Assembly: GCA_041242255.1 (NCBI GenBank)
Contig: JBESAV010000001.1
Span: 755,631-819,630 of the forward strand
Origin: Candidatus Altimarinota bacterium
GTDB lineage: Bacteria > Patescibacteriota > Gracilibacteria > UBA1369 > GCA-2718715
DNA length: 64,000 nt
Reading direction: 5' to 3'
In this document: positions 49,012 to 60,146 of the stretch, one piece after another
Numbering within the stretch: position 1 is the stretch's first letter
Layout: each line of letters opens with the position of its first letter
The notes under the pieces: model-generated
Told to the model about the DNA's origin: nothing
What the model saw: only the letters and a program-made list of their open reading frames with translations
Databases searched by the model: none
Position numbers and translations under genes: made by a program

Positions 49012-49943
49012 AAATCAAAATCAACTCAGAACAATCCAACCAAAGAATTGATGCCTTCCTATCAAGCCTCATACCCGAAAAAAGCCGTTCTCAAATCCAA
49101 AAACTAATCAAAGATGAACTAGTTCTCATCAACAACACCTCAACCAAAAAAAATTACCAACTACAAGAAAACGACACTTTAGAAATCCTAGAAGTACCAA
49201 AGACTAAAAACCCTCTAAAACCAATCAAGAAGCCACTTGATATAATTTTTGAAAACGATGACATCTTAGTTATAAATAAACCAGCCAACTTGAGCGTTCA
49301 TCAAGATATTCAAGGACACCAAAAAGAAACCCTGATTAACTGGCTACTAGGAAACGATATCACACTAAGCTCTATAGGTGGAATTCATCGACCAGGTATA
49401 GTACACAGACTTGATAAAGACACTTCAGGCGTACTCATAATCGCCAAAAACGATAAAACCCACCACTTTCTCCAACAACAATTCGCCGACCGAGCAGTCG
49501 ACAAAACCTACTTAACCCTAGTTGACGGAACACCACCAACCAAAACAGGAACAATCAACTCACCTATAACTCGTGACCTGGTAGACCGTAAAAAAATGAA
49601 AGTCAGTTCATCAAGTAAAGCTCGCCCATCAGTCACACATTTCAAAACAATCCAAACTTATCACGTTCCCAATTCAACAAAGAAATGTTCACTCCTTAAA
49701 GTACAAATCGAAACTGGCCGAACCCATCAGATCAGAGTCCACATGGCCTCAATCGGACATCCAGTTATAGGAGATGACAAATACGGCTCAACTAAAATCA
49801 ACCAACTTTTCAAACCACTTGGCCTAAAAAGACAATTCTTACACGCCCACAAGCTTAAACTAAAAATAAACAATTCAGAAAATAAATCATTTACATCTGA
49901 ACTACCAACAGACCTTCAGTCAGTCCTTGAAAAACTTAACTAG
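49008..49943 (+). CDS. rluD: 23S rRNA pseudouridine synthase, RluA/RluD family
   Basis: S4-like N-terminus, HRLDKDTSGVLIIAK catalytic Asp motif and GRTHQIRVH motif. Confidence 0.9.
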   Translation: MKIKINSEQSNQRIDAFLSSLIPEKSRSQIQKLIKDELVLINNTSTKKNYQLQENDTLEILEVPKTKNPLKPIKKPLDIIFENDDILVINKPANLSVHQDIQGHQKETLINWLLGNDITLSSIGGIHRPGIVHRLDKDTSGVLIIAKNDKTHHFLQQQFADRAVDKTYLTLVDGTPPTKTGTINSPITRDLVDRKKMKVSSSSKARPSVTHFKTIQTYHVPNSTKKCSLLKVQIETGRTHQIRVHMASIGHPVIGDDKYGSTKINQLFKPLGLKRQFLHAHKLKLKINNSENKSFTSELPTDLQSVLEKLN

Positions 49944-50275
49944 TCAGTAATAAACTCTTTGGCAATTAAAAATTTATAAACCATAATAATTAGATTATCC
50001 CTATTTTTAAGAGGCAATGAGTATTCATCATTCACTAAGATATAAAGATAACGCATAAACTTTTCGTCTATCAAGCATTTCTCTACTCCCCTCTTAATGT
50101 AAGCCACATATGAAGGAACAACCTTCTTTTTTTTATTTGGGAGATCATCCATACCCCTCTCCACAAAACCTTGAATAGCTAACCCCATTTTTTTTATCCG
50201 GTCTGAATGAAACTCATAACTATCGCCTTCAAATTCATATCCAAAATAGTCTGGATCAATTGCTAACTTTGCCAT
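49940..50275 (-). CDS. Hypothetical protein (last gene of the orphan operon)
   Basis: 111-aa ORF, same strand as the operon and 51 nt downstream of the previous gene. No motif recognised. Confidence 0.4.
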   Translation of the reverse strand: MAKLAIDPDYFGYEFEGDSYEFHSDRIKKMGLAIQGFVERGMDDLPNKKKKVVPSYVAYIKRGVEKCLIDEKFMRYLYILVNDEYSLPLKNRDNLIIMVYKFLIAKEFITD

Positions 50276-50326
50276 TTTTCAAATATTAATTTTTTAAAAA
50301 ATAACAAAAACTCTAAATCTGTCAAG

Positions 50327-51124
50327 CTACAAGCTAATTATACTAGAATGATACTTTTGACTTATTTTACTTATCAAAAGCTCCCTAAATTCGTCATTCA
50401 CCATAAGCACTCCACCAGAAGATAAAAATTTTAGAATCAATCCTAGAGCCTTAAGTCTTACTTCATTAAAAGACACTTCAATAACTAAAGTCTCTAAACA
50501 ATACATATGATCTACAACTTCAGACAATACAACTCCAAAATCATGTTCATTTAAATGACATTTAAACTCCAGTCTTTTTAAATGAGTATTGTTTCTAGCA
50601 AAAGCAGAAAAGTGCGCTACATCTCCAAAGATATCTTCATAAGGTGACACATCGCCAAACACGAAACTTTCTTGCGAAGGTAACACCCTTATATTTTCCA
50701 ACATCCCCCACCTAAATCTTGTAAGATCAACCTCTGTATCATCGTTACTATGCAGCAATTCTATATTATTATACTTAGCAAATGCCATCATTATCTCCCA
50801 AAAGTGATTAGGAATATCCATATTCACAAATGAAACCTTCTTTAAAAAACGCATGTAAGGATTAGAAATCGTAAACCCTAAAAAGTTAACTTCAAATCTA
50901 CATTTATTAAACTCAATCTCTCGAACTCCATTACTAATCATAAAAGAAAGAACACGTACAATATCCTCATTTATAAAGCTACAATCAACAAACTTAACCA
51001 CACTTACAGACTCAAGACTATCGCCTAGATTATCAACCACTTCTTCATAAAACTTCAAATCAGATACTTCTATAGAGCTACCTAATTCTATTATATCTTT
51101 ATTATGAAACTCTTTCGATTCCAT
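50327..51124 (-). CDS. Hypothetical protein, RNI-type leucine-rich-repeat-like
   Basis: 265 aa. Repeating ~27-30-aa units of the form L..L.F..C.......V...V......LE.L (for example LKRLEFKCHLNEHDFGVVLSEVVDHMYCLETLVIEVSFNEVRLKALGLILKFL). Confidence 0.4.
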   Translation of the reverse strand: MESKEFHNKDIIELGSSIEVSDLKFYEEVVDNLGDSLESVSVVKFVDCSFINEDIVRVLSFMISNGVREIEFNKCRFEVNFLGFTISNPYMRFLKKVSFVNMDIPNHFWEIMMAFAKYNNIELLHSNDDTEVDLTRFRWGMLENIRVLPSQESFVFGDVSPYEDIFGDVAHFSAFARNNTHLKRLEFKCHLNEHDFGVVLSEVVDHMYCLETLVIEVSFNEVRLKALGLILKFLSSGGVLMVNDEFRELLISKISQKYHSSIISL

Positions 51125-52058
51125 CTTGTGTATTAAATTTAAACACCTCTACTCGATATTTATCATTATATTTCTGGAAAACATCCATCAAAATATTATA
51201 CTCTTCTTCTGAATACTCAACCAAGATTGGCTCTAATGTAGTTTCATAATTTAGGTACAATAAATTCTCAAAAAGATGATCAAGATAAACTTTATCACAT
51301 GACAAACTTGACCCTGAAAAATTAACATTTACTCTACCAAAAAACTCATACCTTATATGTGATGTTCCTGTACTAGACTTTTGAACAACAACTCCCTCTG
51401 GAAACAACCCTATAAAACGCTTCAATCGCCTAGGAGAAAGCACCACACCACTAATACAATCAACATCCTCCAGGGTAAACTTCCCTATACCAGCATCAGC
51501 TTCTAAATCAAAATCACACCCAAAACTCTTATTGAGATAAGTAAACAACTTATCTTTAGCTTCATCGTTAGCAAATTCCAAAACATTAACAACACCATTC
51601 AAATACTCAGCAATTTTCAACCTATCCGATGCAGTAAATTTATCTATTGGAAACCCATCCATTACTAATATAATTTCATCAATATTATAAACTTCTAACC
51701 TACTACCCTGAAAATTAGTCAAAAACTCATAAACACCACCTGGCCTTAGGAATAGAATTTCACCCTCAACATATTTTCTTTCTGAAATAGGCTCTGAAGA
51801 ATCACCTACAGAAGCAACTACTTCAACTTTTTCGATTACTCTCTCTACTACAGACTCTATAATTTTTTCTTCATCTTCACTCTCTAGAATAACATCAAGA
51901 TACATCTTCAAAACTTCGAGGTGAAGACTCTCACTTAAAAGATCAAACCAAAAGTCAACATCAACACCTAATAATCTTTCTTCAATATAAGCATCATCAT
52001 TTCCACTCAACTCATTTGCCAACAAATCTGACATCTGACTTATAAATAATTTTTTCAT
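51102..52058 (-). CDS. Hypothetical protein
   Basis: 318-aa ORF. Overlaps the upstream gene by 1 nt and the downstream gene by 23 nt. No motif recognised. Confidence 0.45.
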   Translation of the reverse strand: MKKLFISQMSDLLANELSGNDDAYIEERLLGVDVDFWFDLLSESLHLEVLKMYLDVILESEDEEKIIESVVERVIEKVEVVASVGDSSEPISERKYVEGEILFLRPGGVYEFLTNFQGSRLEVYNIDEIILVMDGFPIDKFTASDRLKIAEYLNGVVNVLEFANDEAKDKLFTYLNKSFGCDFDLEADAGIGKFTLEDVDCISGVVLSPRRLKRFIGLFPEGVVVQKSSTGTSHIRYEFFGRVNVNFSGSSLSCDKVYLDHLFENLLYLNYETTLEPILVEYSEEEYNILMDVFQKYNDKYRVEVFKFNTQDGIERVS

Positions 52059-59038: not shown

Positions 59039-59040
59039 AT

Positions 59041-60099
59041 CTAAAACTTAATCTTAAATCCTGCACTAATCAAAGCCTCCCTCACCTCTTCAATCGTCCA
59101 AAAATCAAATAAAACATTCATAATAGGCCTTAGTGCAGATTTCATATAAATATCTCCCCTAGTCAAAAACGCTAAATTTGAAACTTCAAAACTACTATGA
59201 ATAAAGTGGGACTTAGAATTTGAGCTATCACCACTTTCAAAACCTAATAACTCTAAAAATTCACTAAGGTCTGAACCTGACACCTGCTTATTAGCATACC
59301 TTTTAAATCGCTTCATAAAAACATCTTGCCTTTCCTCTAAAGTCAAACCGTCACTCTCTTCTTCAATTTTATAACTATCCAACAGATCATGTAACCTATC
59401 ATCACTCAACGCATTAACAGCAATTGATCTCACTTCTTCAAACTGCTCAACTCCAAACTCATTCATGAAAAAATCAATCACTAAATCAAAATGATACTCT
59501 ATAGACTCATGTCCTTCCTCGGCGAACACACCTAAATAGTCTTTTTCAAAATTTTTAAAACATCCCCAAACAGAATCTGCATATAGATCGACATTTGGAT
59601 TAGAGTCACTTGCCAAAGCACTCACAAATGAAACCAAATCAGATAATTCAAACTTAGAAAATTTCACGTGACCAATTTCTTCACTTATCTCATCTATAGC
59701 TTCTACAATACTCTCATCCTCCCAAGCCTCATCAACTGGATCCGTTGATCCCACTAACTTAGAATTCAACTGAGGCATTACAAGCTCCATAAATTCATCA
59801 GCATTCAACTCTTTTTTAAACTCTTCATATTCAAGAGCATCTTGAAAACAAACATTCATCACATCTCTAACACCTTCTAATTCACATATACTTAGATTAT
59901 GACCCTCACAATTTACGTCTTTTTTCAATAACTGCCTACACATAAAAGAAGAAAAAAGAGGTAATTGACTTTGCAATTCCTGGATTAATACATTCAAATC
60001 ATCAATCCTCCTTAAAGATTCAAGCAAGTCCACAATTGATAATACTCTATTTTCACGCTGGGTTTCACTAACCACCGACGAAGGACAAAGGTTTTTCAT
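59041..60099 (-). CDS. Hypothetical protein with HicA-like C-terminal ~80 aa (first gene of the orphan operon)
   Basis: 352 aa. The tail GSDLSEFLELLGFESGDSSNSKSHFIHSS....IYMKSALRPIMNVL resembles the HicA/YcfA pattern (L..LGF......GSH......lk.gtl..I). Confidence 0.45.
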   Translation of the reverse strand: MKNLCPSSVVSETQRENRVLSIVDLLESLRRIDDLNVLIQELQSQLPLFSSFMCRQLLKKDVNCEGHNLSICELEGVRDVMNVCFQDALEYEEFKKELNADEFMELVMPQLNSKLVGSTDPVDEAWEDESIVEAIDEISEEIGHVKFSKFELSDLVSFVSALASDSNPNVDLYADSVWGCFKNFEKDYLGVFAEEGHESIEYHFDLVIDFFMNEFGVEQFEEVRSIAVNALSDDRLHDLLDSYKIEEESDGLTLEERQDVFMKRFKRYANKQVSGSDLSEFLELLGFESGDSSNSKSHFIHSSFEVSNLAFLTRGDIYMKSALRPIMNVLFDFWTIEEVREALISAGFKIKF

Positions 60100-60118
60100 A
60101 ATAAAAATTTAAGAACGC

Positions 60119-60146
60119 AAAATAACACTTAAAACAATATTGTCAA
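60119..60146 (-). promoter_or_regulatory. Candidate sigma70 promoter in the glyQS-to-orphan-operon spacer
   Basis: On the minus strand: TTGACA (60141-60146), 16-nt spacer, TATTTT (60119-60124). Lies 19 nt upstream of the ATG at 60099. Confidence 0.35.

What the first reader, a model, noticed from the sequence alone, without database searches (positions are those of the whole stretch)
49940..60146. Nine-gene, translationally coupled orphan operon downstream of glyQS
Nine same-strand ORFs follow glyQS: 59041-60099, 57035-59038, 56440-57042, 53784-56435, 52776-53738, 52058-52783, 51102-52058, 50327-51124 and 49940-50275. Their junctions are a 2-nt gap, 8-nt overlap, 4-nt gap, 45-nt gap, 8-nt overlap, 1-nt overlap, 23-nt overlap and 51-nt gap, which is the signature of a single co-translated unit. 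I cannot place any of the nine full-length proteins in a named family. The recognisable pieces are an SF2-helicase-like NTPase core, a HicA-like C-terminal tail, an RNI-type LRR-like protein, two long coiled-coil proteins and an 883-aa protein made of ~240-aa repeats. None has a signal peptide or TM helix, so this looks like a cytoplasmic assembly. The 54-nt spacer after glyQS contains a consensus -35 (TTGACA) with TATTTT 16 nt downstream, so the block may have its own promoter. A candidate terminator at 61594-61620 separates glyQS from the genes upstream. An NTPase combined with repeat/LRR sensor-like proteins and a small RNase-like domain matches the general logic of many anti-phage systems. 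It could equally be a lineage-specific cytoskeletal, chaperone or host-interaction module. I cannot match it to any described system.
Basis: partly seen in the sequence, partly recalled or inferred. Interest (0 to 1): 0.8.

Follow-up and report, generated by a model that had tools for sequence, protein, structure and literature searches.

The report
Orphan nine-gene AAA+-like cluster in CPR
A small-genome CPR (Patescibacteria) bacterium carries a real, tightly packed 10-kb block of nine genes that have essentially no relatives in any database; one gene looks like a degenerate Clp/Hsp100-type ATPase, and what the block does remains unknown.

Summary
The nine minus-strand ORFs and all eight junctions are exactly as described. 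Pfam, NCBIfam, PHROGs and PADLOC place none of them, whereas 26 of 30 other ORFs scanned in the window have Pfam hits. An exhaustive HMMER scan of 1.84 billion representatives found one relative of g2, a metagenome fragment. On that fragment a g2 homolog (33-38% identity) is followed 2 nt later by a g3 homolog (26%). The nearest genomes (GlyRS 60-70% identical; Peribacteria/Peregrinibacteria/Dojkabacteria-labelled MAGs) lack all nine genes within 10 kb of glyS and carry a VirD4/TraG-like ATPase there instead. I found no phage, plasmid, integrase, tRNA or flanking-repeat signal.

- Corrections: the block has three consensus promoters (before g1, g5 and g9; 3 of only 4 such sites in 64 kb), so it is probably three sub-units.
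- The NTPase is not detectably SF2. Its N-terminal ~190 residues align colinearly with Clp/Hsp100 NBD1. A pore-loop-like Tyr-Arg is kept, but Walker B reads D-N instead of D-E.
- The HicA-like and LRR-like calls are unsupported. The three ~240-aa repeats in g4 are real.

Both AlphaFold runs failed (pLDDT 32 and 38). Best guess, at low confidence: a lineage-specific cytoplasmic complex built around an AAA+-like protein. A defence role is possible but has no positive evidence.

The parts
59041..60099 (-). g1, 352 aa, acidic (pI 4.4), orphan; first gene of sub-unit 1
   Evidence: ORF. No family hit. No phage or viral relative.
57035..59038 (-). g2, 667 aa, P-loop NTPase-like protein. N-terminal AAA+-like domain, unassigned middle region, and a C-terminal domain that is the conserved part in the only relative.
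   Evidence: only self plus P0002 among 1.84 G representatives.
58370..58921 (-). g2 residues ~40-223: Clp/Hsp100-NBD1-like AAA+ large subdomain. Walker A G51-T55 (K54); pore-loop-like Y93-R94; Walker B D145-N146 (Asn where AAA+ has Glu); candidate Arg finger R213; PVPAES 216-221.
   Evidence: BLASTP to a real ClpB/C (L039): 36% identity over 56 aa, pairwise E=1e-5. Smith-Waterman z=9.2. hhalign probability 51%, with a colinear alignment of 157 columns; global score 19.2 versus null 3.0 +/- 1.9.
57044..57805 (-). g2 residues ~412-665: C-terminal domain of unknown fold, conserved at 33-38% identity with metagenome fragment P0002
56440..57042 (-). g3, 200 aa, low Pro+Gly orphan (helical character inferred from composition, not tested); overlaps the g2 stop by 8 nt. 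Its homolog follows the g2 homolog on L085.
   Evidence: 26% identity, E=7e-10, aligned from Met1; (Pro+Gly 3.0%).
53784..56435 (-). g4, 883 aa, acidic. N-terminal ~110 aa, then three tandem ~230-240-aa repeats (about aa 113-340, 347-572, 583-817; landmarks P-x-G-V...Q-L and G-W-R-P-E-V-D), then a C-terminal tail.
   Evidence: r1/r2 E=3e-10, r2/r3 E=6e-5. No PDB, phage or plasmid relative.
52776..53738 (-). g5, 320 aa, very acidic (23% D+E), low Pro+Gly; short coiled-coil-like C-terminus (aa ~282-319); first gene of sub-unit 2
   Evidence: Only sub-threshold coiled-coil-type Pfam matches.
52058..52783 (-). g6, 241 aa, acidic orphan, 8-nt overlap with g5
51102..52058 (-). g7, 318 aa (310 aa in another gene call), acidic orphan
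50327..51124 (-). g8, 265 aa orphan; LRR-like reading not supported
49940..50275 (-). g9, 111 aa orphan with its own promoter; its 3' end overlaps the convergent rluD stop by 4 nt
60119..60146 (-). P1: TTGACA-N16-(TG)TTATTTT, 20 nt upstream of the g1 ATG
53760..53787 (-). P2: TTGACA-N16-TAAAGT, 22 nt upstream of the g5 ATG; the -35 overlaps the g4 stop
50298..50325 (-). P3: TTGACA-N16-(TG)TTATTTT, 23 nt upstream of the g9 ATG

Best explanation
The block is a lineage-specific, fast-evolving set of nine real genes encoding a cytoplasmic multi-protein assembly built around g2. It is expressed from three strong sigma-70-type promoters as sub-units g1-g4, g5-g8 and g9.

Shown:
- The genes are intact and tightly coupled.
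- g2 and g3 are conserved as neighbours in one diverged lineage.
- g2 carries a P-loop domain.
- g4 is a triple-repeat protein.

Inferred, moderate support:
- The g2 N-terminal domain is an AAA+ module of the Clp/Hsp100 NBD1 type. It keeps the Walker A lysine and a pore-loop-like Tyr-Arg. It has Asn in place of the Walker B catalytic Glu and only one Arg at the double arginine-finger position.
- It should therefore bind ATP but hydrolyse it slowly. That would make it a nucleotide-dependent clamp, switch or slow remodeller rather than a fast motor.

Inferred, weak support:
- The co-translated partners are its adaptors, scaffold or clients, assembled in fixed stoichiometry. These are g1, g3, the triple-repeat protein g4, and the acidic, low-Pro/Gly proteins g5 and g6.
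- The biological role is not established. I rank a conflict role (anti-phage, anti-mobile-element or host-interaction) slightly above a housekeeping-type cellular machine.
For: - ORFs and junctions.
- 0 of 9 have family hits, against 26 of 30 elsewhere in the window.
- Three promoters: 3 of 4 pattern matches in 64 kb, P~1e-6.
- No terminator-like hairpin with a T-run between g1 and g9 on the coding strand, except one weak 6-bp stem inside g6.
- g2-g3 pair conserved at 33-38% and 26% identity with a 2-nt gap.
- Clp NBD1 likeness. The global colinear hhalign score is 19.2 against a null of 3.0 +/- 1.9 with the P-loop kept. A true AAA+ paralog control scores 37.8 against 34.8 for g2.
- Acidic, no clear TM or signal segment.
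- Host-like composition.
- The block occupies ~1% of a ~1.0-Mb genome (longest contig 1,000,477 bp).
Against: - Pfam AAA (PF00004) and the other AAA+ models do not detect g2.
- PDB-wide E-values are only 0.16-1.5.
- hhalign probability is only 51%, with shallow 7-sequence profiles and no secondary structure.
- No AAA+ lid is detectable.
- The part downstream of the first 56 residues is marginal on its own (z=2.6).
- Both AlphaFold models were unusable (pLDDT 32 and 38), so nothing is known at fold level for any of the nine proteins.
- There is no evidence for physical interaction, expression or ATP binding.
- Only g2 was searched exhaustively. The other eight may have remote relatives I could not reach.
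Confidence: 0.4

Rival explanations
1. It is an anti-phage or anti-mobile-element defence system of a new type. The NTPase acts as sensor or switch, the repeat protein g4 senses an invader component, and an unrecognised effector lies among the remaining orphans.
For: - Extremely narrow distribution and fast divergence.
- The position downstream of glyS is variable between related genomes.
- NTPase plus repeat-protein architecture.
- In the abstract of PMC6509639 (listed), CPR genomes are said to rarely encode CRISPR-Cas, and their phage-resistance mechanisms are called an open question.
Against: - No hit to any of 5027 PADLOC models.
- No recognisable effector domain (nuclease, TIR, SIR2, protease or membrane protein) in Pfam or NCBIfam.
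- The HicA and LRR leads failed.
- Described defence systems are typically spread patchily across phyla by horizontal transfer (my own knowledge). This one appears in one species plus one fragment.
- The scanned neighbours on both sides are mostly housekeeping genes, with no recognisable restriction-modification, CRISPR or toxin-antitoxin family among them.
Confidence: 0.25
2. It is a domesticated or decaying remnant of an unsampled CPR phage or plasmid (a cryptic mobile-element module). That would explain the orphan status, the overlapping genes and the strong promoters.
For: - Orphan, densely overlapping genes with consensus promoters.
- CPR viruses are poorly sampled (my own knowledge).
- The block, and also the 102-aa and 385-aa ORFs on the other side of DUF3467-glyS, are additions relative to the gene order in related genomes.
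Against: - No integrase, tRNA target or flanking direct repeats.
- No match in IMG/VR (6 scans), in INPHARED phages or in PLSDB plasmids.
- No significant PHROG hit.
- GC, GC3 and purine skew are indistinguishable from flanking core genes.
- All nine ORFs are intact, up to 883 aa, in a 33% GC genome.
- The block is identical in independently assembled samples.
Confidence: 0.15
3. The g2 NTPase is a divergent SF2 (or SF1) helicase, and the block acts on nucleic acids.
For: - By eye the motif order can be read as SF2: AxxGxGKT, hhhhD, 'AASS', and later 'TISGTRS' and 'FGRL' (my own reading).
- Weak AAA_30/AAA_11 (SF1-type) Walker-A-level Pfam matches at E 0.02-0.25.
- hhalign local score of 31.1 to an SF2 core profile is above its shuffled null.
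Against: - No DEAD, ResIII or Helicase_C hit at E<=10.
- No similarity to the window's own RecG.
- The hhalign match covers only the ~50 columns around the P-loop (probability 17%), and the global alignment collapses to score 3.4. The Clp NBD1 profile aligns end to end.
Confidence: 0.12

Closest known systems
Clp/Hsp100 AAA+ unfoldases (ClpB, ClpC, ClpK, ClpL, ClpV/TssH), first nucleotide-binding domain
   Same: g2 residues ~40-223 align colinearly with the NBD1 large subdomain. The aligned elements are Walker A (PGxGKT), the helix 'LAQ', the strand 'ALD', the pore-loop segment (KYRGEFE against EYRSEFR), Walker B (hhhhD), the loop ending in KP/QP, and the 'EKDpaLERRxQPxPVEEP' segment (against 'EKSKASLDIRVIPVPAES').
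   Different: - Walker B reads D-N, not D-E.
- One Arg instead of two at the finger position.
- A ~26-residue insertion before Walker B.
- No detectable lid, N-domain, middle domain or second NBD.
- Not detected by Pfam AAA models.
- Followed by ~440 residues of unknown fold.
Multi-gene, NTPase-centred anti-phage systems catalogued in PADLOC
   Same: General layout only: an NTPase gene co-encoded with several proteins of unknown function in a tight same-strand cluster, with narrow distribution and fast evolution.
   Different: No protein matches any PADLOC model. No recognisable effector. No defence-island neighbours. Not spread across lineages.
Gene clusters that pair an Hsp100-type ATPase with signal-less cytoplasmic structural proteins, such as type VI secretion clusters with ClpV/TssH
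   Same: A Clp-like ATPase encoded alongside several acidic, cytoplasmic, signal-less proteins in overlapping operons. This is a functional analogy only.
   Different: No Pfam or NCBIfam signal for any Tss, Hcp or VgrG family in the nine proteins. g2 has one P-loop domain rather than two. No membrane-complex genes. I do not propose membership.

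Membership tests
SF2 helicase superfamily | Two RecA-like lobes detectable with DEAD/ResIII and Helicase_C profiles | tested here: not met
   No such Pfam hit for full-length g2 or for domain-sized pieces at E<=10. The window's RecG scores 2.8e-26 and 2.8e-23 with the same library.
SF2 helicase superfamily | Colinear similarity to an SF2 core (motifs I-VI) | tested here: not met
   BLASTP against RecG finds nothing. hhalign to a 7-sequence SF2 core gives probability 17% over only 51 columns around the P-loop; the global score is 3.4 over 12 columns.
AAA+ ATPases, Clp/Hsp100 NBD1 type | Walker A GxxGxGK[ST] | tested here: met
   P50-G-Y-G-K54-T55, aligned to PGVGKT of a real ClpB/C.
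AAA+ ATPases, Clp/Hsp100 NBD1 type | Walker B hhhhDE with catalytic Glu | tested here: not met
   I141-V-M-F-D145-N146: Asp is present, but Glu is replaced by Asn.
AAA+ ATPases, Clp/Hsp100 NBD1 type | Pore-loop aromatic residue (K-Y-R/K in NBD1) | tested here: met
   E92-Y93-R94-S-E-F aligns with K-Y-R-G-E-F. This is sequence alignment only.
AAA+ ATPases, Clp/Hsp100 NBD1 type | Arginine finger(s) and sensor 1 at the end of the large subdomain | tested here: inconclusive
   'LDIRVIPVPAE' aligns with 'LERRLQPIPVE', so one Arg (R213) is kept. This downstream segment alone gives z=2.6, with 15 of 500 shuffles reaching it. The sensor-1 assignment is ambiguous.
AAA+ ATPases, Clp/Hsp100 NBD1 type | Overall profile similarity to the NBD1 large subdomain | tested here: inconclusive
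   hhalign probability 51%, score 34.8. Global alignment of 163 columns scores 19.2 against a null of 3.0 +/- 1.9 (0 of 60). A true paralog control scores 37.8. However, PDB-wide E is 0.16 or worse and there is no Pfam AAA hit.
AAA+ ATPases, Clp/Hsp100 NBD1 type | Helical lid (small subdomain) after the alpha/beta domain; ring formation | tested here: not met
   hhalign of g2 residues 205-420 against a lid profile gives probability 0.2%. Oligomeric state is not testable with these tools.
HicA toxin (PF07927) | Profile match to HicA_toxin; dsRBD-like fold with catalytic His | tested here: not met
   No hit for the g1 tail (98 aa and 63 aa pieces) or for a similar-looking g7 segment at E<=10. 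The two segments are not related to each other. The fold could not be tested.
Leucine-rich repeat proteins (RNI type) | Tandem 28-29-residue repeats | tested here: not met
   Thirds of g8 compared with each other give z = 0.7, 0.0 and -0.7. The hydrophobic autocorrelation has no dominant 28-29 peak. No Pfam LRR hit.
Known anti-phage defence systems (PADLOC-DB 2.0) | At least one component matching a system model | tested here: not met
   0 hits for all nine proteins at E<=1.
Prophage or integrated mobile element | Integrase or recombinase, attachment repeats or tRNA target, phage or plasmid homologs, atypical composition | tested here: not met
   no tRNA nearby, no flanking repeats; no homologs; host-like composition.
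Single operon (one transcription unit) | Same strand, short gaps, one promoter, no internal terminators, co-transcription | tested here: inconclusive
   Same strand and gaps of 51 nt or less are met. There is no strong internal terminator. However, three consensus promoters precede g1, g5 and g9. Co-transcription is not testable here.

The most novel reading that the evidence does not exclude
The nine genes encode a previously undescribed multi-protein machine confined to one CPR lineage. A degenerate Hsp100-like AAA+ protein would work with a triple-repeat scaffold and seven proteins of new folds. It would serve either as a new kind of phage or host-conflict system or as a lineage-specific cellular apparatus tied to the episymbiotic lifestyle.
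Probability: 0.3. Interest if true: 0.75.

Novelty: categorically new. Interest (0 to 1): 0.5.

Why it matters
CPR/Patescibacteria have ~1-Mb genomes under strong reduction. This organism nonetheless spends about 1% of its genome on nine intact, promoter-equipped genes that no database can place, in a window where most other genes are readily annotated.

If the block is a working machine, it is a compact entry point into the functional 'dark matter' of CPR biology. Only one part, the Clp/Hsp100-like module in g2, is even partly recognisable. How these bacteria resist phage and deal with hosts is poorly understood.

The label 'categorically new' is provisional. It means that no membership test succeeded, not that a new mechanism was demonstrated. 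Fold-level homology could not be examined. The lineage is so sparsely sampled (nearest GlyRS only ~70% identical) that fast-evolving but ordinary proteins could also look orphan.

Tried and rejected
1. Family libraries (Pfam, PADLOC, PHROGs, NCBIfam), on full proteins and on domain-sized pieces: nothing significant.
2. Homolog searches.
   - All three word-indexed searches of 5.8 G proteins (g2, g2+P0002 profile, P0002) returned only the query.
   - The one exhaustive HMMER job (g2) returned self plus P0002.
   - The 90% clusters of all nine proteins hold only same-species variants.
3. Synteny. 80 GlyRS-anchored loci from GTDB species genomes were searched with tblastn and phmmer. No homolog of g1-g9 was found. 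The only cross-hit was g2 to a ClpB in L039, which became the AAA+ lead.
4. Two JGI metagenome scans (g2+P0002 alignment; g4-repeat alignment): nothing. P0002's own 1.1-kb contig was not recovered either.
5. Six IMG/VR scans, four phage tblastn searches and two plasmid tblastn searches: nothing.
6. PDB sequence and profile searches for g1, g2, g4, g8, A1 and A2: nothing significant.
7. AlphaFold2. g2 with a 2-row alignment gave pLDDT 32. The g4 repeat with a 3-row alignment gave pLDDT 38. Both were unusable, so I ran no Foldseek search, because the matches would be meaningless.
8. dN/dS from strain contigs: impossible, because the contigs are at least 99.97% identical.
9. Paralogy among the nine proteins or with other window ORFs: none. 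g1 tail against g7: none.
10. Mobile-element hallmarks (tRNA, repeats): none. Rfam: nothing meaningful.
11. Literature search for the assemblies, runs or sample, and for comparable CPR clusters: nothing specific.
12. A shared operator in the three promoter spacers: none beyond the hexamers.

Full report
OBSERVATION

| gene | coordinates | length |
|---|---|---|
| g1 | 59041-60099 | 352 aa |
| g2 | 57035-59038 | 667 aa |
| g3 | 56440-57042 | 200 aa |
| g4 | 53784-56435 | 883 aa |
| g5 | 52776-53738 | 320 aa |
| g6 | 52058-52783 | 241 aa |
| g7 | 51102-52058 | 318 aa |
| g8 | 50327-51124 | 265 aa |
| g9 | 49940-50275 | 111 aa |

The eight junctions follow from these coordinates: 2-nt gap, 8-nt overlap, 4-nt gap, 45-nt gap, 8-nt overlap, 1-nt overlap, 23-nt overlap and 51-nt gap. 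Other gene callers start g3 at Met7 (194 aa) and give g7 310 aa, so two overlaps depend on start choice. The g3 homolog on L085 aligns from Met1, which favours the 200-aa start.

Upstream lies a 462-aa class-II GlyRS (HGTP_anticodon E=4e-22). It is preceded by a DUF3467 gene and a 12-bp-stem terminator at 61623-61597. Eight of the nine proteins are acidic (pI 4.3-5.0; g9 is 6.6). None has a signal-like N-terminus or a convincing TM helix. GC, GC3 and purine bias match the flanking core genes.

HOW UNUSUAL IS IT

- None of the nine has a significant hit in Pfam, PADLOC, PHROGs or NCBIfam, either whole or cut into domain-sized pieces.
- By contrast, 26 of 30 other ORFs scanned in this window have Pfam hits at E<=1e-3. 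The immediate neighbours are mostly housekeeping genes: TyrRS, RecG, NUDIX, two GT2, RluD, GlyRS.
- The block is therefore a sharply bounded orphan island of 10.2 kb. That is about 1% of a genome whose longest contig is 1,000,477 bp.

DISTRIBUTION

- g2 found only itself among 5.8 billion clustered proteins.
- An exhaustive HMMER scan of 1.84 billion representatives added one protein, P0002. It is a C-terminal fragment on a 1,117-bp JGI contig (L085; GC 30.7%). It is 33-38% identical to g2 residues 412-665.
- Two nucleotides after its stop begins a gene whose product is 26% identical to g3 from Met1 (E=7e-10). So g2 and g3 are real, selected genes, they evolve fast, and their adjacency is conserved in at least one diverged lineage.
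- All other occurrences come from the same species, on contigs at least 99.97% identical to the window: two NCBI MAG assemblies and two Logan runs.
- I anchored on GlyRS and fetched 80 loci from GTDB species genomes. The nearest are 60-70% identical and are labelled Peribacteria, Peregrinibacteria, Dojkabacteria or Patescibacteria. None contains a homolog of any of the nine proteins by tblastn or phmmer.
- In the closest genomes the order is TrxR-like, DUF3467, glyS, a TM-anchored VirD4/TraG-like ATPase, PGK, and an SLH/CAP surface protein.
- The window's last 123 bases match that TrxR-like gene. The 102-aa and 385-aa (RNB-like) ORFs upstream of DUF3467 are therefore also lineage-specific additions.
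- I found no tRNA, integrase or flanking repeat.
- I found no relative in IMG/VR (six scans), in INPHARED phages, in PLSDB plasmids or in JGI contigs.

TRANSCRIPTION UNITS

- The pattern TTGACA-N15-18-TAxxxT occurs four times in the 64-kb window on both strands. Three of those sites sit in the block's three intergenic gaps, 20-23 nt before the ATGs of g1, g5 and g9.
- Fifteen TTGACA hexamers exist in the window. The chance that three fall in those 3 x 60 strand-specific positions is about 1e-6.
- Two of the three sites have an extended TG -10. No Shine-Dalgarno sequence precedes any gene here, the housekeeping neighbours included.
- The spacers share nothing beyond the hexamers.
- I therefore read the block as three promoter-headed sub-units, g1-g4, g5-g8 and g9, with tight translational coupling inside the first two. 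Read-through may still join them, because no strong terminator lies between them.

THE PROTEINS

g4: three tandem ~230-240-aa repeats are real (r1/r2 E=3e-10, r2/r3 E=6e-5). Invariant landmarks are P-x-G-V...Q-L near the start of each repeat and W-R near the end.

- No DEAD, ResIII or Helicase_C hit.
- No similarity to the window's own RecG.
- A profile alignment to an SF2 core covers only the P-loop region (probability 17%) and collapses in global mode.

The closest sequences are instead Clp/Hsp100 first nucleotide-binding domains.
- Eight of the eleven best PDB matches are Hsp104 or ClpB, though not significant (E 0.16-1.5).
- The only cross-hit in the 80 fetched loci was a bona fide ClpB/C in L039.
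- Pairwise BLASTP gives 36% identity over g2 residues 50-104 (E=1e-5 for that single comparison). Smith-Waterman gives z=9.2.
- Against a 7-sequence Clp NBD1 profile, hhalign gives probability 51% and score 34.8. With permissive realignment, 157 columns align colinearly across the whole large subdomain.
- In global mode the score is 19.2, against 3.0 +/- 1.9 for shuffles that keep the P-loop (0 of 60 reach it). The SF2 and Clp NBD2 profiles collapse.
- As a positive control, a true AAA+ paralog (Clp NBD2 against the NBD1 profile) scores 37.8 under the same conditions.

The alignment places:
- Walker A at G51-T55;
- a pore-loop-like E-Y93-R94 opposite K-Y-R;
- Walker B at D145-N146, with Asn where the catalytic Glu should be;
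- 'LDIRVIPVPAES' opposite 'LERRxQPxPVEEPS', so one of the two arginines is kept (R213).

No lid is detectable, and Pfam's AAA models do not see the domain. I rate the AAA+/Clp-like assignment at about 0.6. It is not established.

- The HicA-like tail of g1 has no support. A similar-looking segment in g7 is unrelated to it.
- g8 shows no internal repeat or LRR periodicity.
- By my own crude heptad score, g5 and g6 have only short coiled-coil-like segments.

Both AlphaFold2 jobs failed for lack of alignment depth (pLDDT 32 and 38). No fold comparison was possible.

MECHANISM

Shown:
- nine intact genes, tightly coupled within the first two sub-units;
- three consensus promoter matches, one before each of g1, g5 and g9;
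- a P-loop protein;
- a triple-repeat protein;
- a conserved g2-g3 pair.

Inferred:
- g2 is a degenerate Hsp100-like AAA+ module that probably binds ATP but hydrolyses it slowly. In my own knowledge, replacing the Walker B Glu is the classic 'trap' change in AAA+ proteins. It may engage partner proteins through a retained pore-loop-like tyrosine.
- The co-translated proteins are adaptors, scaffold or clients in a cytoplasmic complex.

The role is open. A conflict function is suggested only by circumstance: narrow distribution, fast divergence and a variable locus. It has no positive evidence. A mobile-element remnant is disfavoured by host-like composition and the absence of every hallmark. 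A lineage-specific cellular machine remains equally possible.

COMPARISON AND NOVELTY

- The block is not a member of any family or system I could test (see the membership table).
- It works, at most, like other clusters that pair a Clp-type ATPase with signal-less cytoplasmic proteins. That is analogy only.
- I label it 'categorically new' provisionally, in the sense of unclassifiable.
- Two caveats apply. Fold-level homology is untested. The lineage is so thinly sampled (nearest GlyRS ~70% identical) that fast-evolving ordinary proteins would also appear orphan.

VERDICT

- Function is unresolved.
- Interest is moderate (0.5). This is a well-defined, experimentally tractable piece of CPR dark matter, but orphan clusters in CPR genomes are not in themselves surprising.

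Noticed in passing
window 1-64000: GC skew on the + strand is strongly and uniformly negative across the whole window (-0.05 to -0.52 per 2 kb; cumulative skew is monotonic). This holds even where genes alternate between strands in the first 40 kb. It indicates a pronounced strand compositional asymmetry, with the window lying on one replichore. A paper listed (PMC7143001) describes such a disparity in another CPR genome, judging from its title and abstract only.
   Followed up: no
window 45123-47015 (-): This is a 630-aa TyrRS. An N-terminal B3_4 domain (E=8e-17; the domain type known from the PheRS beta subunit) is fused to the class-I Tyr/Trp catalytic core and an S4-like C-terminus. The fusion is unusual and might add an editing or tRNA-binding function.
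   Followed up: no
window 61985-63142 (-) and 63490-63798 (-): A 385-aa acidic protein has only a sub-threshold RNB-domain match (E=6e-6, 26 bits against a cut-off of 29). A 102-aa orphan lies next to it. Both sit between the TrxR-like gene (window end, 63878-64000) and DUF3467. In the nearest relatives those two genes are adjacent, so these ORFs are further lineage-specific additions flanking the conserved DUF3467-glyS pair.
   Followed up: partly
window 50112-50134 (+), inside g9 on the opposite strand: A hairpin followed by T8 lies ~170 nt downstream of the rluD stop, on the rluD strand. It is probably the rluD terminator. If so, rluD transcripts would run antisense across the 3' half of g9. 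The rluD and g9 stop codons overlap by 4 nt.
   Followed up: no
L005, L007, L011, L014, L033 (downstream of glyS): In the nearest relatives, glyS is followed by an ~840-860-aa protein. In L007 it matches T4SS-DNA_transf, TrwB_AAD_bind, TraG-D_C and DUF87 (a type IV coupling-protein-like ATPase) and has a hydrophobic N-terminus. PGK on the opposite strand follows, then an SLH+CAP-domain surface protein and a PP2C-domain protein. This whole arrangement is absent from the window.
   Followed up: partly
window 11356-13317 (+): A small HATPase_c-type kinase (173 aa), a STAS-domain protein (121 aa) and a PrsW-family intramembrane protease (357 aa) lie in a row. This looks like an anti-sigma/anti-anti-sigma partner-switching module linked to a site-1-type protease.
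   Followed up: no
window 19133-19711 (+), 15547-17706 (+), 9475-11250 (-): Three predicted surface-type proteins. The first is a 192-aa protein with a T4SS_pilin domain. The second is a 719-aa protein with ASH/HYDIN/Cep192-type Ig-like domains. The third is a 591-aa protein with sub-threshold fn3/Big_13 matches. They are cell-surface or pilus components of the kind expected in an episymbiont.
   Followed up: no
window 1289-1657 (+): A 122-aa protein matches Phage_holin_4_2 (E=4e-12). It directly follows the C-terminal part of a class-I tRNA synthetase (Anticodon_1 plus DUF5915).
   Followed up: no
GTDB genome scan: The window's own genome did not appear among the GlyRS hits; the best was 70% identical. 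Either it is withheld from the collection or the species has no close representative there. In either case the lineage is very sparsely sampled, which weakens any inference drawn from 'no homologs'.
   Followed up: partly
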